A stretch of DNA of 64,000 nt from a virus. The stretch lies in IMG/VR virus record IMGVR_UViG_3300009481_003844; one strand, 5' to 3'. The notes under the pieces are model-generated. The model had not been told where the DNA came from and searched no databases. It saw nothing but the letters and a program-made list of their open reading frames with translations. The position numbers and the translations under genes are program-made. This document shows positions 15,078-64,000 of the stretch, one piece after another; position 1 is the stretch's first letter; each line of letters begins with the position of its first letter.

Positions 15078-15080
15078 ATA
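15073..15080 (+). promoter_or_regulatory. T4-type late promoter candidate
   Basis: TATAAATA 55 nt upstream of the cell-wall hydrolase start; the motif is common in AT-rich DNA. Confidence 0.4.
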
Positions 15081-20271: not shown

Positions 20272-20921
20272 TGTTTATACATGAAAATGTTCTTGGTGAT
20301 TTAGAACTAAAAACTACAAATGAAAATGGAAAAAGATGTTATGTAACTCCTGATGGTGAAAAATATCCTTCCGTTACTACTGTACTTTCTGATTATAAAA
20401 AAGAAGGTATAATCAAATGGAGAAAACGTGTTGGTGAAAAACAGGCCAATAAGATTTCCACTCAAGCATCCCGCCGCGGTACAAAAGTTCATAAACTGTG
20501 TGAAGATTATTTGAATAACGAATTATCATTTGACGATTATACTCCTGATAATGTTGTTATGTTTAAAAGTATTCAATCTATTTTGGATGAAATAGAGTTG
20601 GTTTATGGCCAGGAACGTACACTATTTTCAAATCATTTAAGAGTAGGAGGAAGAGTCGATTGTGTTGGTAAATTTCGTGGAAAAAAACACATAATTGATT
20701 TTAAGACTTCAAGCAAACCCAAAAAAGAAGAATGGATTGATAATTATTTTATGCAAGGGTCAGCATATTCTGTTATGTGGGAAGAAATGACTGGCATATC
20801 TATACCTTATATCGCAATAATTATTGCTGTAGCAGATGAAATGCCACAGATTTTTATTGAACACAGAGATAATTGGATCGATAAGTTTATAGAGATTAGA
20901 AATAATTATGATAACACTTAA
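20271..20921 (+). CDS. Cas4-like PD-(D/E)xK exonuclease of T4-like phages
   Basis: YPSVTTVL, RGTKVH, GRVDCV, IIDFKTS.KPK, YFMQ..AY. Confidence 0.85.
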   Translation: MFIHENVLGDLELKTTNENGKRCYVTPDGEKYPSVTTVLSDYKKEGIIKWRKRVGEKQANKISTQASRRGTKVHKLCEDYLNNELSFDDYTPDNVVMFKSIQSILDEIELVYGQERTLFSNHLRVGGRVDCVGKFRGKKHIIDFKTSSKPKKEEWIDNYFMQGSAYSVMWEEMTGISIPYIAIIIAVADEMPQIFIEHRDNWIDKFIEIRNNYDNT

Positions 20922-22047
20922 TCTTGATGAGATCAAAAGAAAACCACAATTATTATCAATATTAGAAGAATTGAAACATGAAAAAGATTCAATTTTACTA
21001 TTTGATATGCCCGAAGGATCAAGATTATGGCCATTAGACGAAGAAGAAGACTTTTCTTATATTTTATTTTCAAAAGCACATGAAATTTTACAATATCACA
21101 AATTTGATGTTTGGTATTTGTGTTCTGATGTAAATATTAAGACCAGATATACAAAATGGTGTAAAAAAGTAGGTGTTGAAAAAAAGTTTAATGTATTATA
21201 TTTTCCATTTACTGTTAGATTAGATGTTATTGATTATATCAAACAAGAACACGTTGATTCTCTCGCCAATATTCCTAAGAAAAAAAATTTTATACAATTA
21301 ATTTGTAATCCTGATGTTTCTAGAATAGCAACTGTTAATCGTTATTATAAACATCTAAATTATGAATATTCTTTAGTTCCTCAGTTTCATAATGATCATG
21401 AAAATAATTTTGATATAAAAAATAGAATACTTACAGAAATTGAATTGTCTGATATATGGATTAATGATGTTGATGGAGGTAAAGAGTTAAAAGATTGGGA
21501 AACAATTACTGTAAATAATAAAAAACTTAATAAATATATTTTTAATGCATTTCTTCCTAAAGAAAGTTTTGAATCTTGTTGTGATGTAGTATTAGAAACT
21601 TATTTAGATGGTCCACTTTATTTTACTGAAAAAACATGGAAACAATTTTTGTTTCAAAAGCCTTTTATTATGATAGGCACAAAAGGTATTAATCATTATT
21701 TACAAGATTTAGGATTTGAATTATATGATGAAATTTTTGATTATGATTATGACTTAGAAGATAATAATATAAGAAGATTAGAGGGGTTTTGGACTCAAAT
21801 AGAACGATATTTAGACCTTGATGTTCCTGATTTTGAGAAGAAACTTATTATATTGAAAAAAAAGCTAATACATAATAGAAATACCTACATTAAATGGATA
21901 TCAAATATAGATAACGTATTAAATGATCATCGACCAGAATATGATGAGTTGGCTCATTATTTCTATCTTTATTCTACTTTTTACGAAAAAGAATATTTAC
22001 CAGATAAGGGGTTTAACATAATTAAAAAAATTTGTTTGGGGTGTTAA
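20908..22047 (+). CDS. GT10 (fucosyltransferase)-like protein, paralog 1
   Basis: ETY..GP.YFTEKTWK...KPFI.IG...GF..YDE.FDY.YD C-terminal block. Confidence 0.5.
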   Translation: MITLNLDEIKRKPQLLSILEELKHEKDSILLFDMPEGSRLWPLDEEEDFSYILFSKAHEILQYHKFDVWYLCSDVNIKTRYTKWCKKVGVEKKFNVLYFPFTVRLDVIDYIKQEHVDSLANIPKKKNFIQLICNPDVSRIATVNRYYKHLNYEYSLVPQFHNDHENNFDIKNRILTEIELSDIWINDVDGGKELKDWETITVNNKKLNKYIFNAFLPKESFESCCDVVLETYLDGPLYFTEKTWKQFLFQKPFIMIGTKGINHYLQDLGFELYDEIFDYDYDLEDNNIRRLEGFWTQIERYLDLDVPDFEKKLIILKKKLIHNRNTYIKWISNIDNVLNDHRPEYDELAHYFYLYSTFYEKEYLPDKGFNIIKKICLGC

Positions 22048-22733
22048 TGGATTATGATTTTACAATAAGTAGTCATTGTAACGCCGCATGTCCTTCTTGT
22101 AAGAGATATGAAAGTCACAATAATCCGATTAATTTATATAATGAACCTTTGCATCCAGGATTAAATCAAATTCATATGGATTTTGATGAATTTAAATATA
22201 TTATTGAAAGAGATATTAATTTATTTAAAAACAAACTTGTAACATTTGAAGGTGAACTTGGGGATCCTATGGTTCATCCACATATAAAATCTTTTATAAA
22301 TTTTAGTACAGGTGTTTTTAAAAAATTAAAAATAGTTACTAATGGTGGAATTAGAAATGCAAAATTTTTTAATGATTTGGGAAATACATATAATAATTTA
22401 GAAATTATGTTTTCTATAGATGGTCTAGAAGATGATTTAAATGGGTTGTATAGAGTAAAAGTAAATACTAAAAAAGCAATTGGTAATATGGTTGCATTTG
22501 CTAAAAGTAAGTATGGAAAATCATGGGGAGTGAGTTGGCAATATCTTATTTTTGAACACAACTGGTTTGAAATACCAGAAGTTTTAGATTTTGCAAAATT
22601 ATACAATATACCTATTGTATTAAAAATAAATACTCGACCTAAATTTAGAATAGAAGATAGATTAATACCTAGTGTTGTTAAACAATATGAAAAAAATAAA
22701 TTTAAATTAAGCAATCTTGTTTTAGCGAATTAA
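22047..22733 (+). CDS. Radical SAM core protein lacking SPASM domain
   Basis: CNAACPSC; GELGDP; TNGG; FSIDG. Confidence 0.9.
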   Translation: MDYDFTISSHCNAACPSCKRYESHNNPINLYNEPLHPGLNQIHMDFDEFKYIIERDINLFKNKLVTFEGELGDPMVHPHIKSFINFSTGVFKKLKIVTNGGIRNAKFFNDLGNTYNNLEIMFSIDGLEDDLNGLYRVKVNTKKAIGNMVAFAKSKYGKSWGVSWQYLIFEHNWFEIPEVLDFAKLYNIPIVLKINTRPKFRIEDRLIPSVVKQYEKNKFKLSNLVLAN

Positions 22734-23422
22734 TGTTACCTGCAGAAACTTTTATATACAATTTTGAAATTACATCGTATTGTAATGCTGATTGTCCTAG
22801 TTGTTTTAGAACAATGAATAAAAGTAAATTGCCACTTAGACATTTAAAAGTTGAAGATTTCGAATTTTTAATATTAAACAATATAAATTTTATAAAAAAT
22901 AATCGATACGAAATACAAATTGCAAAATTTTGTGGAGAAGTTGGAGATCCTCTGTTACATCCTAAGATTGATCAATTAATTGGTATAGCTGAAAGTGTGT
23001 TTAATAGAGTTGAAATTTATACAAATGGTGGACTTAGAAATACAACTTGGATAAAAAATCTATTTAGACGATATGGAAAAACTCGTTTTGTGTTTGGTAT
23101 TGATGGATTGTCTGATGAAACAAATCAAATGTATAGAGTTAATGTGAGAACTGATATTGCATTAAAAAATATGATTGAATCTGCAAAATATAGACCTACT
23201 AGATGGGAATATACGATATTTAGTCACAATTATTTAGAATTATTTGATGTGATAATGTTTGCAAAAAAACACGACTTAAAGTTATTATGTAGATTTAATG
23301 GCCGAACTTTTAATAAACTTGATGATGAAAATATAGTTAAGTGTGAAACATTACTTAAAAAACATAATACAGACTATTACATATGCAAAGAAGATGTGAG
23401 AATGAAGAAGAAATTAAAATAA
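22733..23422 (+). CDS. Radical SAM core protein lacking SPASM domain
   Basis: CNADCPSC; CGEVGDP; TNGG; FGIDG. Confidence 0.9.
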   Translation: MLPAETFIYNFEITSYCNADCPSCFRTMNKSKLPLRHLKVEDFEFLILNNINFIKNNRYEIQIAKFCGEVGDPLLHPKIDQLIGIAESVFNRVEIYTNGGLRNTTWIKNLFRRYGKTRFVFGIDGLSDETNQMYRVNVRTDIALKNMIESAKYRPTRWEYTIFSHNYLELFDVIMFAKKHDLKLLCRFNGRTFNKLDDENIVKCETLLKKHNTDYYICKEDVRMKKKLK

Positions 23423-23688
23423 AATGTGATTTTTATAATTATGAATCTGCTAGTTGGAGTCAATATGAAATAGATTTAGATTTAAATGTATTTCCTTGTT
23501 GTCATTATTATATGGACCACACTTTAACTAAAAAACCTAATAAGCATATTAGTCATATAGATAATAGTCTTAAAACCAATTCTTTAAATAATATTTTTAA
23601 AGAATATGATAAAGTATTAAATGAAAAACTTTGGAAAAATAAAAAAACATGTCCTCCTCTTTGTATGAAAATTTGCCGAAAAAAATAA
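23383..23688 (+). CDS. Stand-alone SPASM/Twitch-like Fe-S domain protein
   Basis: IKC...EID.D.NVFPCC...NSLK.N.L..I...CPPLC..IC. Confidence 0.7.
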   Translation: MQRRCENEEEIKIKCDFYNYESASWSQYEIDLDLNVFPCCHYYMDHTLTKKPNKHISHIDNSLKTNSLNNIFKEYDKVLNEKLWKNKKTCPPLCMKICRKK

Positions 23689-24008
23689 ATAATAATCAAC
23701 ATAATTTACCTGAAGAATTTGAAGATTTGGTTTATTGTATAGGATGGCATGAACATAAAAAATGGGCAGAAGTTGAAATAGCATCTGATTTTTCTGTATA
23801 TCCTTGTTGTGCTTTACATGCAGAGCATCAATTAAATAAAAGATTCTTAGATAAAAAATTAGATAGTTTTGATAAGGAATGGAATAATTTAAAGAAACAT
23901 AAATTGAAAGATATCTTAAAAATATGGAGAGAACATATTAAACCAGAATTTTGGAAAAAAGAAAAAACATTACCCGAATGCTGTAAAACATTATGCAAGA
24001 TAAAATAA
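23649..24008 (+). CDS. Stand-alone SPASM/Twitch-like Fe-S domain protein
   Basis: VYC...EI.SDFSVYPCC...NNLK.H.L.DI...PECC..LC. Confidence 0.7.
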   Translation: MSSSLYENLPKKINNNQHNLPEEFEDLVYCIGWHEHKKWAEVEIASDFSVYPCCALHAEHQLNKRFLDKKLDSFDKEWNNLKKHKLKDILKIWREHIKPEFWKKEKTLPECCKTLCKIK

Positions 24009-24799
24009 TAATATTTGGAGATAGTTTTGCAGATCCTGCAGACAGAAAATACGAAAATAAAAATGTAACAACGTGGTATGAATTTTTGAAATCAGATTAT
24101 AAAATAACAAATCATGCTTTATCTGGTACAGGTCCTCACTATTCATTTAAAGAATATTATAATTTTATTTCTAGTGATAATAATAAAGAAGAGTATATTT
24201 GTATTTTTTTATTAAGTGGAGAAGATAGAATTCATTTCTATAATGCTGATCCCCAAACTATTACACATATTAATTGGAACTTTGATAAAAAAGAAAGTTG
24301 GTGGGCAGAAGATTCAAATTTAACGAAACAAAAAATATATTATGATACATTTAAATCTGAAATTGATTTTTTCTTTTTAACAATGCATGATGAATTAAAA
24401 TGGTCTAATTTTAAAAATTTAGGATTCCTTTATATGAATTCTTTATTATTAAATATGAAAACATTTGTATTTTGTACTTATGGTATTAAAATATTAAGTG
24501 GAATGGGTAATTTTTTAAATCTTACGCAACTTAATAATTCAAATTTTTATTTATATCCAACTGAATTGGGATATATTGCTCATCAAGAATTTGTTGATTT
24601 AGAAACTGCTGGTGGTTATGATTTTGTAGATTATAGAAGAAATCATTTATCACAAGAAAATCATAAAGTTTTATATGAAAATATAAAAAAAATGATTAAA
24701 AATGATTATGAATATATTCCGTTTGTTAAAAATATAAATCATTCTCAAAATCTTGGACAATTTCGTAATTCAAAAACAGGAAAATTTATTTATGAATAG
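23993..24799 (+). CDS. SGNH/GDSL-fold hydrolase or acyltransferase-like protein
   Basis: IFGDSF; N.ALSGTGP; RRNHLS..NH; ends FIYE. Confidence 0.65.
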   Translation: MQDKIIIFGDSFADPADRKYENKNVTTWYEFLKSDYKITNHALSGTGPHYSFKEYYNFISSDNNKEEYICIFLLSGEDRIHFYNADPQTITHINWNFDKKESWWAEDSNLTKQKIYYDTFKSEIDFFFLTMHDELKWSNFKNLGFLYMNSLLLNMKTFVFCTYGIKILSGMGNFLNLTQLNNSNFYLYPTELGYIAHQEFVDLETAGGYDFVDYRRNHLSQENHKVLYENIKKMIKNDYEYIPFVKNINHSQNLGQFRNSKTGKFIYE

Positions 24800-25655
24800 A
24801 TTATTTGTTTTTGGAGATAGTTTTAGTCATCCAAATAGAGTTGATATTGATAAATTGCCTTTATGTGAGTTTATTGATGATAAATTTTTTACATTTTATC
24901 GTATAGTAGCAGAAAAGTTAAAAGCTGAATGTTATAATTTTTCATTAAGTGGTTCTGGCCCACAATATACAATGCTTAAATTTCATCAGGCTTTGTATCA
25001 TTATAAATTTAAAAAAAATGATTATATAGTTTTATTATTGTCAGATCCTAGTAGAGATTATAACCCTATAGAAAATGATATAGAAGAAGTAAAATATGTT
25101 GAATTAGGGGACAGACCTCATTATGGATTTGAAAATATAAGAAATCTTATATATCTTCAATATATGTCAAAATATTTTTTTCCAGAAGTCAAGTTTTTTT
25201 GTAATGTTATATGGAAAGAAAGTTCATTTTTTGAAGGTGAATATTATTCAAGTAGAGAAGGTGAATTTGGAATACACCAAAATGATTTTCCATCTAAAGA
25301 TTTTAAATTTGAAAAGTTATATAATTTAAATGATAGTAATAATTGGTTTTATTTGTGCGATTGTGAATTAGGTATTATTCATATGAAAGAATTTAAAAAA
25401 AAATACAAGATTTATATGTCTCATGAACGATTGCATTTTATACACAATGAAGATTCACAATTTAAAGTAAAAGCAGAAGTCAATGATAGTAGAGTAAATC
25501 ATATGAGTCAAAGAACTCATAATACTTTTGCTAATATTATTTTGGATTTTTTTATTAATAATAAAAGACCTATAAATACTGATAATTTTTTCGAAACTGG
25601 TTTTTTAGATTATGATGATCCACATTTAATTCCACAGGAATTTATATATGAATGA
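24792..25655 (+). CDS. SGNH/GDSL-fold protein
   Basis: VFGDSF; NFSLSGSGP; RVNHMS..TH; ends FIYE; ATG overlapping the upstream stop. Confidence 0.65.
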   Translation: MNRLFVFGDSFSHPNRVDIDKLPLCEFIDDKFFTFYRIVAEKLKAECYNFSLSGSGPQYTMLKFHQALYHYKFKKNDYIVLLLSDPSRDYNPIENDIEEVKYVELGDRPHYGFENIRNLIYLQYMSKYFFPEVKFFCNVIWKESSFFEGEYYSSREGEFGIHQNDFPSKDFKFEKLYNLNDSNNWFYLCDCELGIIHMKEFKKKYKIYMSHERLHFIHNEDSQFKVKAEVNDSRVNHMSQRTHNTFANIILDFFINNKRPINTDNFFETGFLDYDDPHLIPQEFIYE

Positions 25656-26382
25656 TTTTCATATTTTTGGAGATAGTTTTGGGGAAAATCCATTACATAG
25701 TGATTCTCCTGAATTTTGCTGGTTCAATAATTTAAAATTAAAAGTTGATGGAACAGTTTTTAATTATTGCTTAGGATGTACTGGTCCAATAGAAAATTTA
25801 AAACTGCTTCTAGAAAAAAAATTAAAAGATACTAATATAATATTTTTGTTATCTATAAAATACAGAATACCATTTCCTTTTTCGAAAGAACGTGGTCATA
25901 GTGAAGATTTTAAAGAAATTCATGATTCTCGCACTTCTCCTAGAAAAGAAGTTAATTATGCACTAGAATGGTTATATGAAATTGATATGGTTTATAACAT
26001 GTTTGGAGATGAAATAGAAATGTCTCCTTTCTTATGTATATTATATTTACATTTTTATGCTTTAAAAAATAATTGTAAAATATTGATTTTTTTATGTGAT
26101 CCAAATGATGTTGCAAATGAAAATTATTTTTATTTTAATAATGAACATTTTAAAGTACATAGAAAAAATATTTGGCATATGAGTCAAGAAGAATTTCGAA
26201 ACAGAATAATTGATCCTATTGAAGAAGAAAAAAGAGTTTCGCATATAAGTGAATGTAATCATACAATCATGTTTAATATTATTTTAAATTTTTTTATGAA
26301 TACTTCTTATAATGAATCATTTTATCAAAATTTATATGACGGATCAAAAGAAAAAATAAAAAATAGATTTATTTATGATTGA
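25648..26382 (+). CDS. SGNH/GDSL-fold protein
   Basis: IFGDSF; NYCLGCTGP; RVSHIS..NH; ends FIYD. Confidence 0.65.
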   Translation: MNDFHIFGDSFGENPLHSDSPEFCWFNNLKLKVDGTVFNYCLGCTGPIENLKLLLEKKLKDTNIIFLLSIKYRIPFPFSKERGHSEDFKEIHDSRTSPRKEVNYALEWLYEIDMVYNMFGDEIEMSPFLCILYLHFYALKNNCKILIFLCDPNDVANENYFYFNNEHFKVHRKNIWHMSQEEFRNRIIDPIEEEKRVSHISECNHTIMFNIILNFFMNTSYNESFYQNLYDGSKEKIKNRFIYD

Positions 26383-31170: not shown

Positions 31171-31176
31171 AAGTAT

Positions 31177-35261: not shown

Positions 35262-35268
35262 GAGACAT

Positions 35269-35949: not shown

Positions 35950-35968
35950 CAAAATAATATAGGATATT

Positions 35969-50178: not shown

Positions 50179-50230
50179 CAGGAAGATAAATAGTTAAAAA
50201 TAATTAAGAACAATCTCAGAGGAACAAATT

Positions 50231-50830: not shown

Positions 50831-50853
50831 ATTTTTTAAAAATATATTATTTA

Positions 50854-57130: not shown

Positions 57131-58470
57131 CTTGTTTTTACGCCCTTGGTGGAATTAATTATAAAAATGGAGTTATAACAACTTGTCCAAGACAAGCAAA
57201 TCAATTAGTATTTGCTCATGAAACAATATTGCCCTCAGAAATATTTAATCATAAAAATTTTAAAGAACTTAGAAAATCATTATATCAAAATAAATGGCCT
57301 AGTGGATGTGATACATGTGAGAATATGGAACAGGTAGGAGCAAAGTCTATGAGAAAAGATTATGTTTTAAATTCTGATAATTTTTTTCATAAGCCACAAA
57401 AAGACGATTATTCGGACGGAGATCCACAAAAAAATAAATTAAAAGATGAAAAAACAGAAATAAGATTATATGATTGTTATAATCCTATAACACATGAAGT
57501 AAATAGAAAAGGATTGCGACATGTTGAGTTTAGATTTAGTACGGCTTGTAATTTTTCTTGTTTACATTGTTCAAAAGTTTATTCCTCGGGATGGACTAAA
57601 AAATTACGTAATTATGAACCCGATCAAGAAGTTATACTAAATGATTTAAGACAATTGTTAGGAACAGAACATAGACATGGCCCAAATGATAGAAATGAAA
57701 TGTCTTTATCTATTGAAGAATCTTTAAAAATTGTAGAAGACCTGAATGAAAATTTTCCATTATTACAATATGTGGATTTTGCAGGAGGAGAATTACTATA
57801 TCAAAAGCAATTTTTTCCCACATTGAAAAAATTAGCAGATCATCCTAATGCAAAAAATATAAAAATATCTTTTCATACAAATTTTAATGCTGATTTTGAT
57901 GTTGCACTTTTGTCTAAACATCTGGAATGTTTTGGCTCTTCAGCAATAATAATATCTGTTGATGCGGGTAAAACATTTTATTCTTATTTTAGAAATGGGG
58001 GTGAATGGGACAAATTGAAAAATAATATTCAAGAATTTAAAAAAATAAATGATTTTACTTGGGTTGATATGAGTTGTACAACTTCAATTTATCAAATGTT
58101 GGATATATATGATGTTTTTGATTCGTTTTATGATTTGAATTTAAACTTTGATGCATCTATAGTTCAAACTCCACAATATTTGGATCCGTCATTAATACTT
58201 TATGATTTTTATGATGAGACTATGAAAGATATTGAAAAAACATATGAGTTAATTGAAAAAAGACAAAAAAATCCTGAAGGAAAAAGTGATTATTCAAAAT
58301 ATTGGTTTAATTATATTGTGGATTATGTAAAGCAAACGAAAATAAGTTATAATAATTTTAATAGATTTTTAATATATCGAAAAAAATCAGATGAGATTTG
58401 GAATCAAGATTTTAATGATTATTTTGAAAATTATCAAATCGAAAATAATGAATTAGTGAGAGTTAAGTGA
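57124..58470 (+). CDS. Radical SAM protein with N-terminal Twitch domain
   Basis: CFY...TCP...CDTC; CNFSCLHC...SSGW; AGGE; HTN; SVDA. Confidence 0.92.
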   Translation: MLTCFYALGGINYKNGVITTCPRQANQLVFAHETILPSEIFNHKNFKELRKSLYQNKWPSGCDTCENMEQVGAKSMRKDYVLNSDNFFHKPQKDDYSDGDPQKNKLKDEKTEIRLYDCYNPITHEVNRKGLRHVEFRFSTACNFSCLHCSKVYSSGWTKKLRNYEPDQEVILNDLRQLLGTEHRHGPNDRNEMSLSIEESLKIVEDLNENFPLLQYVDFAGGELLYQKQFFPTLKKLADHPNAKNIKISFHTNFNADFDVALLSKHLECFGSSAIIISVDAGKTFYSYFRNGGEWDKLKNNIQEFKKINDFTWVDMSCTTSIYQMLDIYDVFDSFYDLNLNFDASIVQTPQYLDPSLILYDFYDETMKDIEKTYELIEKRQKNPEGKSDYSKYWFNYIVDYVKQTKISYNNFNRFLIYRKKSDEIWNQDFNDYFENYQIENNELVRVK

Positions 58471-59534
58471 AATTAAGTGAATATGATTTTACCAAGATAC
58501 CTTGGAATAAAATTGAACGAGTTGGGACTTGGAAGATGCTGGAGTCTGACTTATTTACAGTTTCATGGTTGTTAGGGAGATTTTGTAATTATAGATGTTC
58601 ATATTGCTGGCCATATGCAAGAAGTAATACTAAAGATCATCGTCCTGTGAAATTATGTCTCAAGACAATTGATGAAATTAAACGACAAGCCAGAGAAAGA
58701 AATTTCAATTCCTTTCATTTTAGTCTATCTGGAGGTGAGCCCACTTTTCATCCAGCATATCTTGATATACTTGAACATCTTGCAGATGATGTAGTATACA
58801 CTAATTATTCATCTGTCCATATGACTTCAAATTGTTCTCGACCTATGAAGTGGTTTGAACGATATGTTGAGTCAGCAAAGAAATTTTCAAGAGCATCTAT
58901 TACTGCATCATTTCATCGTGAATATATTACAAAAAATAAACTTAATGATTTTGCAGATAAACTTGATTTTTGTCAACGTAATGGTGTAAGAGTAACAATT
59001 AATTCTGTAATGGTACCAGAAAAATTTGATGAAATATATAAAGACTTATTGTATTTTTATGAACGAGGCATAAACGTAACACTTAAACCACAAAGTGATC
59101 CTACTGCATCATTTGTTGTTGATGGATATTCTGAAGAACAGATGCAAGTATTGCATAATGGTATGCCTCAGATTACAAACATGGAAGTTAAATCAAAAAA
59201 ACTTCAAAACATTCGTCAAGAATTTGAAATTGTTATGAATGATGATGAAGGAAAAGAGTGGTATCTTGATCAAGCAGAAAGATTTAATGCATTTAATTTT
59301 AATAATTTTAAAGGATGGACTTGCTCTACTGGTTATCGTAGTTGCATTATTCGTGAACCTGATGGAAGCATTAAACGATCTTATTCTTGTGGAGATGCTC
59401 CTTTAGGAAATATAGAAACAGGATTTAAATTATTTGATTCGCCTGTGATATGTACTACAAATGCGTGTGTAAGTTCTGCTGATAGTAAAATTCCTAAAAA
59501 GAAATCTAATTGTACCTTACCATTATGGAAATAG
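58467..59534 (+). CDS. Radical SAM protein with C-terminal SPASM-like domain
   Basis: WLLGRFCNYRCSYCWP; SGGEPT; GWTC..G...G...RSYSC...LGNI...C....C...AD. Confidence 0.92.
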   Translation: MKLSEYDFTKIPWNKIERVGTWKMLESDLFTVSWLLGRFCNYRCSYCWPYARSNTKDHRPVKLCLKTIDEIKRQARERNFNSFHFSLSGGEPTFHPAYLDILEHLADDVVYTNYSSVHMTSNCSRPMKWFERYVESAKKFSRASITASFHREYITKNKLNDFADKLDFCQRNGVRVTINSVMVPEKFDEIYKDLLYFYERGINVTLKPQSDPTASFVVDGYSEEQMQVLHNGMPQITNMEVKSKKLQNIRQEFEIVMNDDEGKEWYLDQAERFNAFNFNNFKGWTCSTGYRSCIIREPDGSIKRSYSCGDAPLGNIETGFKLFDSPVICTTNACVSSADSKIPKKKSNCTLPLWK

Positions 59535-59734
59535 ATAATATTATAAATGATTATTCTTTGAGAGAATTACAAATTATTTCTTCAAGAATATTATCAGAAC
59601 ATGAAGCTACAAATAATTTTATAAAACAATTTAAAGCAGATCATGATAGTCATCAATTTTATAAAAACGTTATTAAATGGTATATTGAAAAATATAAACA
59701 TTTTCCTGAATTGAAAAAATATGATTCCTTCTAA
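59522..59734 (+). CDS. Hypothetical protein
   Basis: About 70 aa ORF coupled to neighbours. Confidence 0.5.
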   Translation: MMEIDNIINDYSLRELQIISSRILSEHEATNNFIKQFKADHDSHQFYKNVIKWYIEKYKHFPELKKYDSF

Positions 59735-61250
59735 AGATAATACTTTTTGTTTTTATCCTTTTTATGCCATGGTTTTTAAACTATGGAAAAAGAATAGTAA
59801 TGAATTAAGAGCAGTTGCACCATGTTGTATGATGCATGACACTAAAGATATAACAGGAATTAAAATAGATGTTTCATATACTGCTACAAATCCTGTGGTT
59901 ATTACAAGTATAAATCATGAATTAATTGATGATGATAAAATAGAAATTTATGAAGTAAATGGAGATGGAGTTGATGTGGGGCCATATACAGTAACAGTAC
60001 TTTCTTCAGATACATTTTCTATTCCTGAAGATGCTACAAAGGGCAATGTTGGTAAATTGAATTATCATATGAGAGAACCGAATTCAATTTTAACTAGAAG
60101 AGATTTAAAAGGATTGTCTCCTCATGATATTTTTCATCATAAAAAATTTGAAGAATTAAGAAAAAACTTACTTAATAATGTGCGGGATTCTCGTTGTTCC
60201 ACATGTTGGAATCAGGAAGATTTGGGAATAATGTCTCATAGAATGTATACACGATGGCAATTTCCAGAAAAATTTAAAACAAGTTTAAAAGAAATAGACA
60301 TATCAATATCTAATAAGTGTAATTTAGCATGTAGAATGTGTAATACAGGATCTTCACATCAACTAAATGAAGATGTGAATAAATTAAGAAAAAATAATAA
60401 ATTGCTTTTATTTGAAGAAGTTTCAGATAATGGTTTAGGATCACTTAATTTACCATTGGATGTTAAAAATAATCATTTAATACAATGGATATATCACAAT
60501 ACTGATAAAATAAAAATTTTAAAAGCATCTGGAGGAGAGCCACTATATGATAGAAATATATTAAATTTGTTAAGAAAATATGTGAAAGATGGTAATAGTA
60601 AATCAACAGAATTACAATTCCATACAAATGCAATGTTAATAACAGATAAAATTATTAAACTCATGGACGAATTTAAATTACAAAGACATTCATTTAGTAT
60701 AGATGGAGTTGATAAGACTTATAATTACATAAGACATAAAGCAAATTTTTCGATTTTAGAAAAAAATATTAAAAATTGGTTTAACAAATCTAATAACATT
60801 TATGCAGTAAATATTAATTTAGTATTGTCTGCGTTAAATATAGGTAATGTTGTTGAGTTTTTGGAATGGACAGCTTTGATGTTTCATGATAAGATTAGAT
60901 GTAATGTTTTTATTTCTGAAGTGCGGCCTCATGGTAGAGGACTCGATATTGCAAATTTACCAATCTCTTATTTAGAAAAAATACGAAAAGATATTATAGA
61001 ATATAGAGATGGTTTTGAAACATTTAGAACTAAAATATATAATTATATGCATAAAGGAAATTTTTTCCATTATGAAATTGATAAATTATTATCGTTAATT
61101 GATCATGCAATAACAAATAATGTATGTGATATTTTTCGTTTATATACTGAAATAACATTATTAGATGAAACAAGAAATCAAAGTTATAAAAATTTTTTAG
61201 ATTCTTCTTTAGTTTCTATTTTAGAAAACTATGAATCGCAAGAAAAATAA
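59721..61250 (+). CDS. Radical SAM protein with N-terminal Twitch domain carrying an inserted beta-domain
   Basis: FCFYPF...PCC-[insert]-...CSTCW; CNLACRMC..GSS; SGGEP; HTN; SIDG. Confidence 0.92.
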   Translation: MIPSKDNTFCFYPFYAMVFKLWKKNSNELRAVAPCCMMHDTKDITGIKIDVSYTATNPVVITSINHELIDDDKIEIYEVNGDGVDVGPYTVTVLSSDTFSIPEDATKGNVGKLNYHMREPNSILTRRDLKGLSPHDIFHHKKFEELRKNLLNNVRDSRCSTCWNQEDLGIMSHRMYTRWQFPEKFKTSLKEIDISISNKCNLACRMCNTGSSHQLNEDVNKLRKNNKLLLFEEVSDNGLGSLNLPLDVKNNHLIQWIYHNTDKIKILKASGGEPLYDRNILNLLRKYVKDGNSKSTELQFHTNAMLITDKIIKLMDEFKLQRHSFSIDGVDKTYNYIRHKANFSILEKNIKNWFNKSNNIYAVNINLVLSALNIGNVVEFLEWTALMFHDKIRCNVFISEVRPHGRGLDIANLPISYLEKIRKDIIEYRDGFETFRTKIYNYMHKGNFFHYEIDKLLSLIDHAITNNVCDIFRLYTEITLLDETRNQSYKNFLDSSLVSILENYESQEK

Positions 61251-62010
61251 TCTTAGATTTGTATTTCCAGTAAATCAACCTGGACTTGGTGATAGATTTA
61301 TCATGACTTCAAATATTCTTTATGCTAGAAAAGAAGTTGAGCATGAATGTTGTATTATTGATATTTTTCTTAAAAATATCAAGCCAAGTAAGGATTATGA
61401 GTTTGATCAAAAACAATATTTAAATCTTACAGATTTTTATGATATTATAGATTTTTTTCATTTTAAAAGACCAGATAAAAGTGAACCATTAATAATTTCA
61501 AATATAATAGATGAAGAACCTCCTCCATTTCATGCCAGCACAGGTCACCGTAATATTGAGTATGAAATAACAAATAATGAATATAAGAGAAGCCACAATT
61601 TTCTTTATAATCGAGAACAATATTGGCCTATAAATTATGATAAAACTATAAAAAAAGATATTATAACATTTATGTTTTATGTAGATGATTCATTACCCGA
61701 ACATAAATTTATTACAGTAGAGGAAGAAAAAGAATTTCAATTATTAAAAACGAATTTATCATCATTTAATTTTCATCGTTTAGAAGATTTTAATTTTAAA
61801 AAAAATGTAGAATTATTATCTAGAAGTAAGTTATTAATATCATCAGAAGGAATGTGGACACATCTTTCAAGAGCAATGGATATTGATACTATTACGATTT
61901 CAAGAGATTCTAAGTTTATTAAAGAATTTACTCGACAAGGTTATTTTTGTTCTGGAATTCAAGAATGTTTAAATGAATTAGAAAAAAGATGTCATGAATC
62001 ACAGGTCTAG
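61231..62010 (+). CDS. GT9 (heptosyltransferase)-like protein, tandem copy 1
   Basis: GLGDRF N-terminal motif; L.S.S.L.I.SEG..THL.RAM...I C-terminal motif. Confidence 0.5.
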   Translation: MNRKKNNLRFVFPVNQPGLGDRFIMTSNILYARKEVEHECCIIDIFLKNIKPSKDYEFDQKQYLNLTDFYDIIDFFHFKRPDKSEPLIISNIIDEEPPPFHASTGHRNIEYEITNNEYKRSHNFLYNREQYWPINYDKTIKKDIITFMFYVDDSLPEHKFITVEEEKEFQLLKTNLSSFNFHRLEDFNFKKNVELLSRSKLLISSEGMWTHLSRAMDIDTITISRDSKFIKEFTRQGYFCSGIQECLNELEKRCHESQV

Positions 62011-62863
62011 TTATTGGGAAACAGGTTATTTTAAAAAAAAGAATCTTAGATTTGTATTTCCAGTAAATCAACCTGGACTGGGTGATAGATTTATCATGGC
62101 CTCAAATATTCTTTTTACTATGAAAGAAGTTGAACACGAATCTTGTATTGTTGATATTTTTCTTAAAAACACAAAGACGGTGCATAAAAGCCAGTATTTA
62201 AATCTTATAGATTTTTATGATATTATAGATTTTTTTCATTTTAAAAGACCAGATGAAAGTGAATCATCAATAATTACAAATATAATAGATGAAGCTCCTC
62301 CTACATATAAAGAGATATTGGCTTCAAAACGAAAAAATATTACAGGTGATGTTGCTTGTCATGATTTTAATTCTAGATATAATGAATATGTTATAAGTAA
62401 TTATTTTCTTTATAACGAAGCACGATATTGGCCTATAAATTATGATAAAACTGCAAAAAAGCAACTTATAACATTTATGTTTTATGTAGATGATTCAGTA
62501 CCCGAACATAAATTTATCACAACAGAGGAAGAAAAAGAATTTAATAAGGTAAAAGATTATTATGGACATTATTTTCATCGACATGAATATTATTTTGTTC
62601 GTTTAGAAGATTTTAATTATAAAAGAAATATAGAATTATTATCTAAAAGTTTGTTTTTAATAGCATCAGAAGGAATGTGGACCCATTTATCTAGAGCAAT
62701 GAAAGTTAATACCATAGCATATTCTAGGGATATTACTTTTATTGAGGAATTTAATAAACAGGGACATTTTTGTTCTGGATTTTTTGAAAAATGTTTAATT
62801 GAATTAGAAAAAAAATGTATAGAATTAAAAAAGAAGAGCAACTTTATAAGTTTGAAGAGATAA
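61994..62863 (+). CDS. GT9-like protein, tandem copy 2
   Basis: Near-identical to copy 1 over long stretches at protein and DNA level. Confidence 0.5.
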   Translation: MNHRSSYWETGYFKKKNLRFVFPVNQPGLGDRFIMASNILFTMKEVEHESCIVDIFLKNTKTVHKSQYLNLIDFYDIIDFFHFKRPDESESSIITNIIDEAPPTYKEILASKRKNITGDVACHDFNSRYNEYVISNYFLYNEARYWPINYDKTAKKQLITFMFYVDDSVPEHKFITTEEEKEFNKVKDYYGHYFHRHEYYFVRLEDFNYKRNIELLSKSLFLIASEGMWTHLSRAMKVNTIAYSRDITFIEEFNKQGHFCSGFFEKCLIELEKKCIELKKKSNFISLKR

Positions 62864-63882
62864 AACATATACATTTTGAACCTACGCAAAGATGTCAGGC
62901 GGCGTGTCCTATGTGTGATAGAACTAATAATCCACATATAAAAAATGCTGAACTTTCTATAGAACAATTTAAACAAATTGTAAATGCTAATTTAGCAAAA
63001 CAATTAAATAGTTTTCTTATGTGTGGTAATCATGGAGATCCTATGATTGCAAAGGATACCCTTGAAATGTTTGACTGGTTACGCTATAATAATAATGAAC
63101 TATATCTTCATATGACTACAAATGCTGGAGGACGATCTGATGATTGGTGGAAAAGACTTGCGGAAATTTTTGGTGATTATGGAAAAGTATCTTTTTCAGT
63201 AGATGGTTTAGAAGACACAAATCATTTATATCGAGTAAATGTAGATTGGAATCGTGTTGAAAATTCAATGGATGTTTTTACTCAAGCAGGAGGAAAAGGT
63301 TATTGGGTATTTTTAATATTTGAACATAATGAACATCAAGTAGAAGAAGCAGAACGAATGGCTAAATTATTTGGACTTGAATTTGTGAGAAAAAAGTCTG
63401 GAAGATGGGTGCAAAGTTATAAAAATAAGAAAATTGACAAAAAGATAACCACTAAGGGGAATGAGATTAAGCCACCAGCTAATCCAGAGAATCAGAATAA
63501 GAGTGTTAACAGTTATGATAAATTGATTAAAAGTCATGGTTCCTTTCAAGAGTATTTAGATAAAACAAAAATAAAATGTAAGTCAATAGATACTAAAGAA
63601 ATTTTTATTTCAGCAGAAGGTCTTGTGACTCCTTGTTGTTGGACTGCTGGAAAATTATATAAAGTATATGAAAAAATAGGACAAAATCAAATATGGTCTT
63701 ATATAGATGATATTAAAAATATTAATGCTTTATATAAACCTTTAAATGAAATTATTGAAGGAGATTTTTTTAAAAAGATTAAACAATCTTGGAATTTGCC
63801 TTCTTGTTCACAAGGAAAATCAAAAGTTTGTGCAGAGAAGTGTGGTACTGATTTTAACGCATTTGCAGATCAATGGAAATAA
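62815..63882 (+). CDS. Radical SAM protein with C-terminal SPASM/Twitch domain
   Basis: CQAACPMC; CGNHGDP; TTNAG; FSVDGL; IKC...IFI...G.V.PCC...C...CG. Confidence 0.93.
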   Translation: MYRIKKEEQLYKFEEIKHIHFEPTQRCQAACPMCDRTNNPHIKNAELSIEQFKQIVNANLAKQLNSFLMCGNHGDPMIAKDTLEMFDWLRYNNNELYLHMTTNAGGRSDDWWKRLAEIFGDYGKVSFSVDGLEDTNHLYRVNVDWNRVENSMDVFTQAGGKGYWVFLIFEHNEHQVEEAERMAKLFGLEFVRKKSGRWVQSYKNKKIDKKITTKGNEIKPPANPENQNKSVNSYDKLIKSHGSFQEYLDKTKIKCKSIDTKEIFISAEGLVTPCCWTAGKLYKVYEKIGQNQIWSYIDDIKNINALYKPLNEIIEGDFFKKIKQSWNLPSCSQGKSKVCAEKCGTDFNAFADQWK

Positions 63883-64000
63883 AAATTAATTGTCTTAAAT
63901 GGGGAACAAAATATGATTCTTCATATGTTAATAGAACATATGGTGGGTTATTAAAACATTGTAATGAATCATTTCATTTCGTTTGTTATACTGATAATCC
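63873..64000 (+). CDS. Glycosyltransferase (KWG.KY family), 3'-truncated by window edge
   Basis: CLKWGTKY...YVNR.Y......FHFVCYTD. Confidence 0.7.
   Translation, partial: MEIKINCLKWGTKYDSSYVNRTYGGLLKHCNESFHFVCYTDN

What the first reader, a model, noticed from the sequence alone, without database searches (positions are those of the whole stretch)
20908..64000. >43-kb phage biosynthetic/hypermodification island of unknown product
About 45 consecutive, mostly overlapping (ATGA/TAATG) same-strand genes, nearly all tailoring enzymes. They include 14 radical SAM, 2 free SPASM-like, 5 SGNH, about 7 GT-like, 5-6 Fe/2OG oxygenases, 2 amidinotransferases, a carbamoyltransferase, sulfotransferase, cytidylyltransferase, 2 PLP enzymes, a halogenase-like protein, nitroreductase, adenylation enzyme and QueC-like ATPase. 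There is no PKS/NRPS, transporter or obvious precursor peptide. The mix of GTs with acyl, amidino, carbamoyl and sulfo transfer suggests building and heavily decorating a glycan, on virion proteins, on phage DNA or on the host surface (inference). The island runs past the window end.
Basis: partly seen in the sequence, partly recalled or inferred. Interest (0 to 1): 0.9.

Follow-up and report, generated by a model that had tools for sequence, protein, structure and literature searches.

The report
Giant phage sugar-tailoring gene island
An uncultured marine T4-like phage gives about 56 kb, some 63 genes including 14 radical SAM enzymes, to what is most likely the building and heavy decoration of a sugar chain; this is an extreme case of a gene set that recurs in many phages and whose product nobody has identified.

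Summary
From 20908 to the window end lie 50 tightly packed same-strand genes, with 14 radical SAM enzymes in three paralog families. Also confirmed: two StrB1-like amidinotransferases, a carbamoyltransferase, a halogenase-like flavoenzyme, a sulfotransferase, SGNH-fold and GT-B-fold families, PLP enzymes and a cytidylyltransferase.

The island runs on to about 77.3 kb (56 kb in all). It ends with two giant multidomain glycosyltransferases and lies between T4 core genes rnh and 33/59/32.

It is not a chimera: both junctions recur in independent assemblies. It is not decaying: dN/dS is 0.11-0.54 for 34 gene pairs. It is hypervariable: flanking genes are 97-99% identical to a relative, island genes 32-96%.

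No island protein has a convincing membrane segment. No precursor peptide, transporter or DNA-base-modification starter gene was found.

Best reading (0.55): soluble cytoplasmic machinery that builds and decorates a glycan or glycoconjugate. The target is unresolved. Free small molecule, protein modification and DNA modification are rivals.

Smaller homologous modules are published but unexplained, in Campylobacter phage CP220 and cyanophage S-SCSM2R. Pelagimyophage islands are reported to mix glycosyltransferases with radical SAM cassettes. This scan has noted similar islands on other DNA (marine jumbo phages, Bdellovibrionales).

The parts
15755..16759 (+). GT1-family glycosyltransferase in the conserved left flank, outside the hypervariable part
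   Evidence: phrog_2170 glycosyltransferase E 4e-34. Pfam Glycos_transf_1 is on record for the identical gene.
19269..19979 (+). Sugar-1-phosphate nucleotidyltransferase in the conserved left flank
   Evidence: NCBIfam AglF/RmlA-type hits E 1e-19 to 4e-18, below cut-offs. Pfam NTP_transferase on record.
20908..22047 (+). Family A GT-B-fold glycosyltransferase-like protein; first gene of the hypervariable island
   Evidence: Paralog of 31761 (E 4e-48) and 47931. Fold of the family. Identity to relatives drops here (98% for 20271, 51% for 20908).
22032..22733 (+). Radical SAM core without a SPASM domain (family 1)
   Evidence: Pfam E 8e-4. Paralog of 22733 at E 5e-38 and of 56168 and 62815.
22733..23422 (+). 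Radical SAM core without a SPASM domain (family 1)
   Evidence: Pfam Radical_SAM 32 bits. Predicted to bind 23383: ipSAE 0.79, best control 0.00.
23383..23688 (+). Free-standing SPASM-like small protein
   Evidence: Paralog of 23649 at E 8e-13. Complex prediction with 22733 passes. Conserved in 5 relatives.
23649..24008 (+). Free-standing SPASM-like small protein
   Evidence: Pfam SPASM E 0.014. Matches the C-terminus of 55228 at E 7e-8.
23993..24799 (+). Family B SGNH-fold protein (esterase or O-acyltransferase type)
   Evidence: Invariant G-D-S, G and H residues. Model pLDDT 84; Foldseek hits are almost all SGNH/GDSL proteins.
24753..25655 (+). Family B SGNH-fold paralog
25648..26382 (+). 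Family B SGNH-fold paralog
26375..27067 (+). Conserved core gene of unknown fold; cupin-like His motifs by eye
   Evidence: No Pfam or PDB match. Present in all 5 relatives at 34-83% identity.
27064..28080 (+). Amidinotransferase 1, StrB1-like
   Evidence: Profile with 49186 vs PDB: 1bwd E 7e-71, HsvA 7e-50, AGAT 5e-46. More than 440 related loci in IMG/VR.
28077..29858 (+). B12-binding radical SAM, probable C-methyltransferase
   Evidence: Pfam Radical_SAM plus B12-binding. NCBIfam KedN5 family E 2e-63, 215 bits, below the cut-off of 700.
29816..30454 (+). 2OG-Fe(II) oxygenase, prolyl-hydroxylase-like
   Evidence: PF13640 E 7.5e-15.
30454..31170 (+). Unknown protein; absent from the nearest relative
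   Evidence: No hit in Pfam or PHROGs. Absent in L098.
31177..31764 (+). Mini DegT-type PLP enzyme (195 aa) that keeps the SFxxxK lysine motif
   Evidence: PF01041 E 2e-19. PseC/LegC-like. The same length is conserved in a relative (196 aa) and in S-SCSM2R ORF305 (E 5.5e-45).
31761..32999 (+). Family A GT-B-fold protein (the one modelled)
   Evidence: Model pLDDT 77.6. VIA-align: T4 BGT Z 10.4, T4 AGT 10.0, PimA 9.2, FUT9 8.5, all GT-B.
32996..33904 (+). Family B SGNH-fold paralog
   Evidence: Atlas neighbours carry DUF6071/GDSL.
33897..35261 (+). Carbamoyltransferase (NodU/TobZ/GdmN type) with a shortened N-domain
   Evidence: Carbam_trans_C E 7e-53. PDB 7xb6 E 2e-44, TobZ 5e-29.
35269..35949 (+). 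Nitroreductase-family flavoprotein
   Evidence: PF00881 E 6.5e-11.
35969..37204 (+). Flavin-dependent halogenase-like protein, short (411 aa)
   Evidence: PF04820 E 5e-64. RebH E 4e-42, cyanophage VirX1 E 1e-33. The second Trp and the Pro of the WxWxIP motif appear replaced; this was read by eye.
37170..37640 (+). Unknown 156-aa protein, always found in front of the truncated adenylation gene
   Evidence: No Pfam hit. Conserved at 70% identity with dN/dS 0.25.
37637..38245 (+). Truncated ANL (AMP-binding) protein that starts at the TSGSTG loop
   Evidence: PF00501 E 8e-21, profile positions 168-333 of 384. Length conserved; dN/dS 0.16.
38233..39423 (+). N-terminal-twitch radical SAM (family 2)
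   Evidence: NF033640 201.6 bits, cut-off 170.
39375..40118 (+). Possible fifth SGNH-type protein
   Evidence: Lipase_GDSL only at E 0.12. Motifs read by eye. Not confirmed.
40087..40941 (+). MORN-repeat protein
   Evidence: PF02493 E 5e-14.
40898..41503 (+). Recurrent unknown protein with a DxD-type motif (GT-A-like guess)
   Evidence: No Pfam or PDB match. Found next to the amidinotransferase in 22 of 80 IMG/VR loci.
41490..42533 (+). Unknown protein with a cupin-like C-terminal motif; an indel variant exists in the population
   Evidence: No Pfam hit. It is 410 aa instead of 347 aa in L001.
42521..43042 (+). Unknown protein, cupin-like by motif
   Evidence: No Pfam hit. 88% identical in G001:C1.
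43035..43619 (+). Weak 2OG-Fe(II) oxygenase
   Evidence: PF03171 E 0.0027.
43616..44434 (+). Short radical SAM with a SPASM domain
   Evidence: Radical_SAM E 4e-11, SPASM E 4e-8.
44431..45102 (+). CMP-sugar-synthetase-type cytidylyltransferase
   Evidence: PF02348 E 2e-15. PseF-like E 5e-15, below cut-off.
45053..46045 (+). Class I/II PLP enzyme, HisC/CobD-like
   Evidence: PF00155 E 3e-23. TIGR01141 E 9e-50, below cut-off.
46005..46685 (+). Sulfotransferase (Sulfotransfer_2-like)
   Evidence: Atlas features score 0.97 (201 shared) and structure TM 0.71 to Sulfotransfer_2 clusters. No direct Pfam or PDB hit.
46660..47088 (+). Asp/Arg-hydroxylase-like cupin
   Evidence: PF05118 E 1e-4.
47072..47446 (+). 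Unknown small protein
   Evidence: No hit. Conserved at 80% identity.
47428..47934 (+). Unknown protein
   Evidence: No hit. Conserved at 72% identity.
47931..49211 (+). Family A GT-B-fold paralog
49186..50178 (+). Amidinotransferase 2
   Evidence: Paralog of 27064 at E 5e-26. Same PDB matches.
50231..50830 (+). Acidic Ser/Thr-rich unknown protein; not conserved in relatives
   Evidence: No hit. Absent from L055 and G001:C1.
50854..52284 (+). N-terminal-twitch radical SAM (family 2); best match to the curated family
   Evidence: NF033640 397.5 bits, cut-off 170. 50% identical homolog in a Bdellovibrionales contig.
52274..53026 (+). PP-loop ATPase, QueC-like at the C-terminus
   Evidence: PF06508 E 3e-6 over the last 60 residues only. 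SGGxDS loop read by eye.
52929..54155 (+). Radical SAM family 3
   Evidence: Pfam E 9e-10. Paralog of 58467.
54152..55240 (+). N-terminal-twitch radical SAM
   Evidence: NF033640 235.6 bits.
55228..56214 (+). Radical SAM with SPASM domain (family 1)
   Evidence: Pfam. Paralogs.
56168..57130 (+). Radical SAM with SPASM domain (family 1); homolog of three CP220 module genes
   Evidence: Pfam. CP220 ORFs match at E 6e-19 to 6e-27.
57124..58470 (+). Radical SAM of the family 2 (twitch) lineage
   Evidence: Pfam E 5e-8. Paralog of 59721 and 50854. Not itself scored against NF033640.
58467..59534 (+). Radical SAM family 3
   Evidence: Pfam E 8e-16. Bdellovibrionales homolog at E 1e-134.
59510..59734 (+). 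Small conserved helical-looking protein (69-74 aa) in front of 59721; not precursor-like
   Evidence: Called as a 69-aa gene in independent contigs. 88% identical in G001:C1. Sequence.
59721..61250 (+). N-terminal-twitch radical SAM with an extra insert after the PCC motif
   Evidence: NF033640 208.8 bits. Insert visible in the alignment.
61231..62010 (+). Family D protein, one of a tandem duplicate; GT9-like only by weak hit and motif
   Evidence: Paralog at E 2e-102. Glyco_transf_9 E 0.11. No PHROG.
61994..62863 (+). Family D tandem duplicate
   Evidence: 79-85% DNA identity between the two copies.
62815..63882 (+). Radical SAM with SPASM domain (family 1)
   Evidence: Pfam. Bdellovibrionales homolog at E 6e-65.
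63873..64000 (+). Start of the next island gene (240 aa, weak GT hit). The island continues about 13.3 kb beyond the window to window-equivalent 77291.
   Evidence: L007, L008 and L020 hold 8 more + strand genes, 2 opposite-strand genes, an 886-aa GT1+Methyltransf_21 protein and an 1137-aa GT2+GT1+GT9 protein, then T4 gp33, gp59 and gp32.

Best explanation
The island is a hypervariable accessory module of a marine T4-like myovirus. It assembles and heavily decorates a sugar-based product in the cytoplasm of the infected cell.

Inferred flow:
1. Sugars from the host pool are activated by the phage nucleotidyltransferases (19269, 44431).
2. They are aminated by PLP enzymes (31177, 45053).
3. They are linked by soluble glycosyltransferases: three family A GT-B proteins, GT1 at 15755, and the two giant multidomain GTs beyond the window.
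4. The product is then tailored by amidino transfer from arginine (27064, 49186), carbamoylation (33897), sulfation (46005), acyl transfer or removal (five SGNH-type proteins), hydroxylation (2OG oxygenases), C-methylation (B12 radical SAM 28077) and possibly halogenation (35969).
5. The 13 other radical SAM enzymes would carry out steps at unactivated carbons, such as epimerisation, dehydrogenation, deoxygenation or C-C bond formation. Two of them work as split enzymes with free SPASM-type partners.

Shown: the enzyme families, their conservation, the absence of convincing membrane segments and the island's variability.

Inferred: that the substrate is a glycan; the order of steps; and that the product is displayed where phage and host meet, either on the virion or on the infected cell envelope via host export machinery. 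I cannot tell which of these two it is.
For: - Glycan enzymes. GT-B fold of family A. GT1, and giant GT2+GT1+GT9 and GT1+methyltransferase proteins at the island's end. Sugar-1-P nucleotidyltransferase and PseF-like cytidylyltransferase. DegT-type PLP enzyme.
- Decorating enzymes whose matched relatives act on sugars or aminocyclitols, or on glycosylated or other natural products. StrB1-like amidinotransferases. TobZ/NodU-like carbamoyltransferase. Sulfotransfer_2-like protein. SGNH fold with PatB, acetylxylan-esterase and rhamnogalacturonan-acetylesterase neighbours.
- Same logic in smaller modules. The common module in other marine phage contigs pairs the amidinotransferase, radical SAMs and family A GT with a cytidylyltransferase/mannose-6-P-isomerase protein.
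- Functional. dN/dS is 0.11-0.54 in 34 ortholog pairs, against 0.16 for rnh. The odd short genes keep their length.
- Not a chimera. Both junctions are seen in several independent assemblies, and one 80-kb contig spans the island to within the last giant GT gene.
- Arms-race signature. gp32, gp59 and gp33 are 97-99% identical to G001:C1, island genes are 32-96% identical, and genes are gained, lost and moved.
- No convincing membrane segment in any island protein; one protein beyond the window is borderline (1.76 against 1.6).
Against: - No product has been seen, and no RNA run was listed for the phage.
- About 20 island genes remain without any family.
- No initiating phosphoglycosyltransferase, flippase, polymerase or ABC exporter is present, so any envelope glycan would depend wholly on host parts.
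- No acceptor protein is identified for virion glycosylation.
- SPASM and twitch radical SAM enzymes are best known from peptide and cofactor maturation.
- Several enzymes (halogenase, nitroreductase, truncated adenylation enzyme, KedN5-like methylase) are more typical of small-molecule pathways.
- The fold matches for families A and B are weak in Foldseek (E about 1e-3 to 5e-3).
Confidence: 0.55

Rival explanations
1. The island makes a free, diffusible small molecule of the aminoglycoside, aminocyclitol or nucleoside-antibiotic type. The phage would use it against competitors or to control the host.
For: The nearest characterised relatives of several enzymes come from such pathways: StrB1, TobZ, GdmN and the novobiocin carbamoyltransferase, the KedN5-family methylase and RebH/PrnA-type halogenases. 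All enzymes are soluble. The authors of the S-SCSM2R paper called the homologous genes 'antibiotic synthesis genes' (PMC12801897).
Against: No scaffold enzyme was found: no cyclitol synthase, PKS or NRPS among the Pfam hits. There is no exporter or self-resistance gene. Two giant multidomain GTs (886 and 1137 aa) fit polymer synthesis better. The extreme gene-content turnover between near-identical phages is unusual for a fixed metabolite pathway.
Confidence: 0.15
2. The radical SAM/SPASM enzymes, 2OG hydroxylases and glycosyltransferases modify a protein or peptide. This could be a RiPP-like product, or post-translational cross-linking, hydroxylation and glycosylation of phage structural proteins.
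For: SPASM and twitch enzymes mostly mature peptides or proteins; NCBIfam neighbours include many peptide maturases, all far below cut-off. The P4H-like and Asp/Arg-hydroxylase-like oxygenases are of protein-hydroxylase types. An amidinotransferase and a prolyl hydroxylase were detected in purified S-SCSM2R virions (PMC12801897).
Against: No Cys-, Gly- or Ser-rich precursor-like small ORF was seen among ORFs of 25 aa or more. The only conserved small gene (59510) looks helical and unlike a precursor. No RRE/PqqD domain, leader peptidase or transporter was hit. This reading overlaps with virion glycosylation and is not fully exclusive of the best explanation.
Confidence: 0.13
3. The island hypermodifies phage DNA: glycosylated and further decorated bases that block host nucleases.
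For: The two best structural matches of family A are the T4 DNA beta- and alpha-glucosyltransferases (Z 10.4 and 10.0). Hypervariability fits an anti-restriction arms race. The related contig encodes a C5 cytosine methyltransferase.
Against: The Z-scores are nearly tied with PimA, WaaG and fucosyltransferases. No ThyA-type hydroxymethylase, TET/JBP or DpdA/TGT was found on the related phage contigs of 161 and 80 kb; neither genome is complete. The oxygenases are of the P4H type, not the TET/JBP type. In the paper read here, the only DNA modification reported for CP220, which has a homologous module, is 7-amido-7-deazaguanine (10.1101/2023.04.13.536721). Homologous radical SAM sets occur in a Bdellovibrionales contig.
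Confidence: 0.06
4. The island is an assembly chimera or a decaying remnant with no function.
For: Several genes look truncated relative to their families: DegT at 195 aa, AMP-binding at 202 aa, halogenase at 411 aa.
Against: Contigs 99.9% identical come from many samples and at least 6 studies. T4 core genes lie on both sides. Composition and strand bias are uniform. The truncated genes keep their length and show dN/dS of 0.16-0.25 against a relative.
Confidence: 0.01

Closest known systems
Radical SAM plus amidinotransferase module of Campylobacter phages CP220 and CPt10 (Timms et al. 2010, PMC2853527)
   Same: Both are T4-like phages. Both have a cluster of five or more radical SAM genes with an amidinotransferase and glycosyltransferase-type genes. 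The module is described as interchangeable between close relatives and its function is unknown. Homology was tested here: three CP220 radical SAMs match island family 1 (E 6e-19 to 6e-27), one matches family 3, and the amidinotransferase matches at E 1e-42.
   Different: The CP220 module has 10-12 genes against about 63 here. In the stretch compared (L179), no CP220 ORF matched the N-twitch paralog family, the B12 radical SAM, the carbamoyltransferase, the halogenase, the SGNH family or family A GTs. The host and habitat are different.
'Antibiotic synthesis genes' cluster of Synechococcus/Prochlorococcus phage S-SCSM2R (PMC12801897, 2025)
   Same: A T4-like marine phage. Its cluster holds several GTs, a 195-aa DegT/AHBA-synthase-like gene, a radical SAM, a 2OG oxygenase and an inosamine-type amidinotransferase, with a PrnA-type halogenase and a sulfotransferase nearby. 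Homology: mini-DegT E 5.5e-45, amidinotransferase E 1e-62, halogenase E 2e-27.
   Different: About 8 kb with one radical SAM. It is a cyanophage with psbD next door. Function is equally unknown.
Host recognition cluster (HRC) of pelagimyophages and cyanomyophages (Zaragoza-Solas et al. 2020, PMC7029224)
   Same: A large hypervariable island (mean 44.6 kb) in marine T4-like phages, rich in glycosyltransferases. Radical SAM cassettes account for differences between close relatives. The authors proposed that it alters the host surface.
   Different: The HRC lies between VrlC and gp14 in the structural module and contains the tail-fibre genes. This island lies between rnh and genes 33/59/32 in the replication module, and no tail-fibre gene was recognised in it.
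NCBIfam NF033640, twitch domain-containing radical SAM protein (N_Twi_rSAM)
   Same: Four island genes score above the curated cut-off of 170 bits (201.6-397.5 bits). Relatives carry 6-7 copies.
   Different: The family has no assigned reaction, so membership names the enzymes but explains nothing.
Streptomycin-type aminoglycoside pathway (StrB1 amidinotransferase; TobZ-type carbamoylation and BtrN-type twitch radical SAM from related pathways)
   Same: It shares enzyme types: amidinotransferase, carbamoyltransferase, DegT aminotransferase, and radical SAM with an auxiliary cluster.
   Different: No cyclitol synthase, no resistance or export genes, many more GTs and radical SAMs, and it is encoded by a lytic-type phage.

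Membership tests
NF033640 N_Twi_rSAM | Whole-protein score above the curated NCBIfam cut-off (170 bits) | tested here: met
   38233 scores 201.6, 50854 scores 397.5, 54152 scores 235.6 and 59721 scores 208.8 bits. 57124 is a paralog but was not scored.
NF033640 N_Twi_rSAM | N-terminal Cys-rich auxiliary-cluster domain ahead of the CxxxCxxC core | tested here: met
   Invariant C15, C33, C97 and C100 precede C153, C157 and C160 in the five-paralog alignment.
CP220/CPt10-type radical SAM plus amidinotransferase phage module | Several radical SAM genes clustered with an amidinotransferase in a T4-like phage | tested here: met
CP220/CPt10-type radical SAM plus amidinotransferase phage module | Sequence homology of the module's genes, not just the same Pfam families | tested here: met
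   phmmer E 6e-19 to 6e-27 for three radical SAMs and 1e-42 for the amidinotransferase.
Pelagimyophage/cyanomyophage host recognition cluster | Position between VrlC and gp14, together with tail-fibre genes | tested here: not met
   The island is flanked by rnh on the left and gp33, gp59 and gp32 on the right. No fibre-like gene was recognised.
Pelagimyophage/cyanomyophage host recognition cluster | Hypervariable content rich in GTs and radical SAM cassettes | tested here: met
Bacterial O-antigen or capsule gene cluster | Initiating phosphoglycosyltransferase plus Wzx/Wzy or an ABC exporter (membrane proteins) | tested here: not met
   No island protein has a convincing hydrophobic segment by Kyte-Doolittle 19-residue scan; one protein beyond the window is borderline at 1.76 (threshold 1.6). 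No such Pfam hits.
Radical SAM/SPASM RiPP gene cluster | Precursor peptide gene next to the maturase | tested here: not met
   ORFs of 25 aa or more were inspected. None looks precursor-like, and the conserved 74-aa gene does not look like one. A very short or unusual precursor cannot be excluded.
Radical SAM/SPASM RiPP gene cluster | RRE/PqqD recognition domain, leader peptidase or exporter | tested here: not met
   No such Pfam or NCBIfam hits.
Phage DNA hypermodification pathway | A gene that creates the modifiable base or inserts it (dNMP hydroxymethylase, TET/JBP, DpdA) | tested here: not met
   No hit on related phage contigs G001:C1 and G002:C81 and none among the window's annotated genes. 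The phage genome is not complete, so absence is not proven.
Aminoglycoside (streptomycin-type) biosynthetic cluster | Cyclitol-forming enzyme and self-resistance or export genes | tested here: not met
   No DHQ-synthase-like or inositol-phosphate-synthase hit among the Pfam results. No membrane protein.
Flavin-dependent tryptophan halogenase family | Pfam Trp_halogenase above cut-off, with GxGxxG and the conserved Lys and Glu | tested here: inconclusive
   PF04820 scores 217 bits. The N-terminal GxGxxG and the EPLE motif are present by eye. However, the WxWxIP motif looks altered and about 100 C-terminal residues are missing relative to RebH and VirX1. The residue roles are recalled from memory, not tested.

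The most novel reading that the evidence does not exclude
The island encodes a phage-specific glycan chemistry that has not been described. Radical SAM enzymes would remodel sugars that carry guanidino, carbamoyl, sulfate, acyl and perhaps halogen groups, and the product would coat the phage's own virion proteins. The coat would change quickly between close relatives, as an antigenic or receptor-masking layer. This would make large, fast-evolving virion glycans a common feature of marine T4-like phages, and it would give a function to the unexplained radical SAM modules of CP220-type and cyanophage genomes.
Probability: 0.22. Interest if true: 0.85.

Novelty: new member of a known kind. Interest (0 to 1): 0.6.

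Why it matters
Radical SAM-rich tailoring modules recur widely. In IMG/VR, more than 435 loci hold a family A relative and more than 440 hold the amidinotransferase. They have been noted in cultured phages since 2010, yet no product is known.

This island is one of the largest and most complete examples, and it adds three things:
- a conserved nine-gene core;
- a split radical SAM with a free SPASM-type partner;
- clear evidence of purifying selection combined with rapid gene turnover.

If the product is a virion or cell-surface glycan, it bears on host range, superinfection exclusion and phage recognition in the ocean. The chemistry, with 14 radical enzymes on a sugar-type substrate, would be new enzymology. 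The homologous small modules in the cultured phages S-SCSM2R and CP220 make the question testable.

Tried and rejected
- Alternative genetic code or sequencing frameshifts as the cause of the short genes. Rejected: the same gene lengths occur in independent assemblies and in a relative at 60-90% identity.
- Chimera. Rejected.
- Whole genome. None is held.
- RNA evidence. No RNA run was listed, so expression is untested.
- PDB profile searches for family A, family B, 40898, 26375 and 46005 gave nothing useful. The OspG hit for 26375 (E 0.001) was judged spurious.
- Relaxed Pfam searches left about 20 genes unnamed. PHROGs named one of ten further genes.
- A genome-collection search with the five-paralog alignment failed for lack of a conserved stretch. 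The single-protein search found only four contigs, three of which look like phage DNA binned into MAGs.
- T4 late-promoter motif: 8 found against 19.8 expected, so uninformative.
- Sigma-70 and terminator scans were at chance level.
- psbA was absent from related contigs, so this is probably not a typical cyanophage. The host remains unknown.
- The first look-up of the 317-aa gene failed through my own coordinate slip; it was then corrected.

Full report
**What is there**

The window carries almost only + strand genes at 25-34% G+C with constant GC skew. From 20908 to 63882 there are 50 ORFs of 100 aa or more, mostly abutting or overlapping.

Pfam finds a radical SAM domain in 14 of them. All-against-all comparison sorts these into three paralog families, plus a B12-binding enzyme and one short SPASM enzyme.
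- Family 1 is 22032, 22733, 55228, 56168 and 62815. The first two lack the SPASM domain.
- Family 2 is 38233, 50854, 54152, 57124 and 59721. Four of them score above the curated cut-off of NCBIfam NF033640, the N-terminal twitch radical SAM family.
- Family 3 is 52929 and 58467.

Other paralog sets:
- Family A: 20908, 31761 and 47931.
- Family B: 23993, 24753, 25648 and 32996.
- Two amidinotransferases: 27064 and 49186.
- A near-identical tandem pair: 61231 and 61994.

**What the other genes are**

Sequence searches give firm names to most of the rest:
- The amidinotransferase profile matches StrB1 (1bwd) at E 7e-71.
- 33897 is a carbamoyltransferase of the TobZ/NodU/GdmN type.
- 35969 belongs to the tryptophan-halogenase family. 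It also resembles the cyanophage enzyme VirX1, but is about 100 residues shorter.
- 28077 is a B12 radical SAM closest to the KedN5 C-methyltransferase family.
- 44431 is a CMP-sugar-type cytidylyltransferase.
- 31177 is a 195-aa DegT-type PLP protein, and 45053 is a HisC/CobD-like PLP enzyme.
- 35269 is a nitroreductase.
- 37637 is a truncated ANL adenylation protein.
- 52274 is a PP-loop protein.

I folded the two largest unnamed families with alignments of phage relatives.
- Family A (pLDDT 77.6) matches only GT-B glycosyltransferases. T4 beta- and alpha-glucosyltransferase come first (Z 10.4 and 10.0), nearly tied with PimA, WaaG and fucosyltransferases.
- Family B (pLDDT 84) matches SGNH/GDSL proteins almost exclusively and keeps an invariant G-D-S.

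46005 is Sulfotransfer_2-like by language-model features (0.97) and by structure (TM 0.71).

**Where it sits and how far it goes**

Upstream genes are phage genes: head maturation protease, endonuclease V, a tRNA methyltransferase, endolysin and RNase H, with four tRNAs.

Contigs that encode identical proteins extend the island beyond the window. They add:
- eight more + strand genes;
- two genes on the other strand;
- an 886-aa GT1+Methyltransf_21 protein;
- an 1137-aa GT2+GT1+GT9 protein;
- then T4 gp33, gp59 and gp32.

In window coordinates the island spans 20908 to about 77291. That is 56 kb and about 63 genes, in the slot between rnh and gene 33.

gp32 is 55-65% identical to those of cyanomyoviruses. 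RNase H DNA is closest to pelagiphage HTVC008M and Methylophilales phage Melnitz. No psbA was found on related contigs. The host is unknown.

**Real, widespread and under selection**

The same DNA (99.9% identical) occurs in contigs from many samples. At least 20 sequencing runs from at least 6 studies hold it, labelled marine plankton, marine and subsurface metagenomes. The left junction is seen in five assemblies. One 80-kb contig spans from upstream of the window into the last giant GT gene.

A relative at 59-91% protein identity (IMGVR_UViG_3300037537_001252) has the same left junction and a syntenic island. For 34 ortholog pairs, dN/dS (Nei-Gojobori) is 0.11-0.54 with a median near 0.21. 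The neighbouring rnh gene gives 0.16. The short DegT, the 156-aa gene and the truncated adenylation gene keep their lengths.

**Variable around a conserved core**

A 161-kb contig of a close relative (G001:C1, binned into a Chloroflexota MAG) has gp32, gp59 and gp33 at 97-99% identity. Its island genes are only 32-96% identical, and their content and order differ.

Five relatives share the same first nine genes, in this order:
- family A GT;
- two SPASM-less radical SAM cores;
- two small SPASM-like proteins;
- a family B SGNH protein;
- 26375;
- the amidinotransferase;
- the B12 radical SAM.

Downstream content is shuffled. Relatives carry 13-16 radical SAM matches and 6-7 N-twitch copies.

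A complex prediction for core 22733 with the small protein 23383 scored 0.79, against 0.00 for the best of three controls. That mark was reached by 51 of 78 solved complexes and 2 of 108 mismatched pairs. This supports a split enzyme, although fused relatives with solved structures may help the model.

**The kind is recurrent**

IMG/VR holds more than 435 loci with a family A relative and more than 440 with the amidinotransferase. Within 10 kb of 80 such amidinotransferases:
- 46 have an N-twitch radical SAM;
- 45 have a P4H-like oxygenase;
- about 20 have SPASM radical SAMs;
- 19 have a B12 radical SAM;
- 13 have a carbamoyltransferase;
- 9 have a halogenase.

A typical small module also holds a cytidylyltransferase/mannose-6-P-isomerase protein.

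Two cultured phages carry homologous small modules, and in both cases the function is unknown.
- Campylobacter phage CP220 has five radical SAMs plus an amidinotransferase, described in 2010 as an interchangeable module.
- Cyanophage S-SCSM2R has GTs, a 195-aa DegT-like gene, a radical SAM and an amidinotransferase, called 'antibiotic synthesis genes' in 2025.

The pelagimyophage study describes a GT-rich hypervariable island with radical SAM cassettes, but at another genome position and with tail fibres. A Bdellovibrionales MAG contig at 48% G+C holds clustered homologs of 50854, 58467 and 62815. This agrees with earlier notes of this scan.

**What it most likely does**

The enzyme set reads as sugar activation, amination, transfer and decoration. 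No island protein shows a convincing membrane segment. One protein beyond the window is borderline. No exporter, initiating transferase, precursor peptide, scaffold synthase or DNA-base starter enzyme was found.

My best reading (0.55) is a soluble cytoplasmic pathway to a heavily modified glycan or glycoconjugate, whose rapid turnover points to a role at the phage-host interface. Whether the product ends on the virion or on the infected cell I cannot decide.

- For the virion: most of the nearest Atlas clusters of families A and B contain only viral sequences, and the same module occurs in phages of unrelated hosts.
- For the envelope: there are giant polymerase-like GTs, and homologs occur in a bacterium.

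Rivals are a free aminoglycoside-like metabolite (0.15), protein or peptide modification (0.13), DNA hypermodification (0.06) and artefact (0.01).

**Verdict**

This is a large new member of a kind of phage island already noticed in the literature and repeatedly in this scan. It is not a new kind. Its value lies in the unknown chemistry and in defining a conserved core that can be tested in cultured relatives.

Noticed in passing
window 41490-42533, compared with L001 15522-16754: Population-level indel. One metagenome contig carries about 200 extra bases, giving a 410-aa product instead of 347 aa. The rest of that contig is 99.9% identical to the window.
   Followed up: partly
L017 5568-6867 (window about 16760-17900): In a 96-98% identical variant, the 397-aa gene 16710 (phrog_11903, unknown function, also found in jumbo phages) is not called; only a 77-aa ORF is listed there.
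   Followed up: no
window 61231-62863: Two adjacent genes are recent tandem duplicates: protein E 2e-102, DNA segments 79-85% identical. No homolog was found in the other fetched IMG/VR loci.
   Followed up: partly
window 59856-60100, inside gene 59721: This N-twitch radical SAM has an extra stretch of roughly 70-100 residues right after its PCC motif that the four paralogs lack. The origin of the insert was not examined.
   Followed up: no
G001:C1 130199-131335 (L190): The related 161-kb phage contig encodes a C5 cytosine DNA methyltransferase (PF00145 E 2e-35), read as two pieces in one 429-aa frame.
   Followed up: no
L183 (JBKDHV010000135.1, Bdellovibrionales MAG) 5422-12752: A contig at 48% G+C carries clustered homologs of island radical SAM genes 58467 (E 1e-134), 62815 (6e-65) and 50854 (6.5e-159), plus another twitch-type enzyme. 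The enzyme set is therefore not confined to phages.
   Followed up: partly
G001:C19 2151-4285 and about 15300: A second contig in the same MAG bin holds two to three N-twitch radical SAM genes and a 603-aa radical SAM. It may be the missing left half of that phage's island.
   Followed up: no
window 7423-12146: Four tRNA genes (Gly-TCC, Tyr-GTA, Asp-GTC, Asn-GTT) lie among small genes upstream of the island.
   Followed up: no
window 15073-15080: A T4 late-promoter-like TATAAATA lies 56 nt upstream of the endolysin gene at 15136. From there to the island, genes are packed on one strand with no convincing terminator. Read-through into the island is possible but untested.
   Followed up: partly
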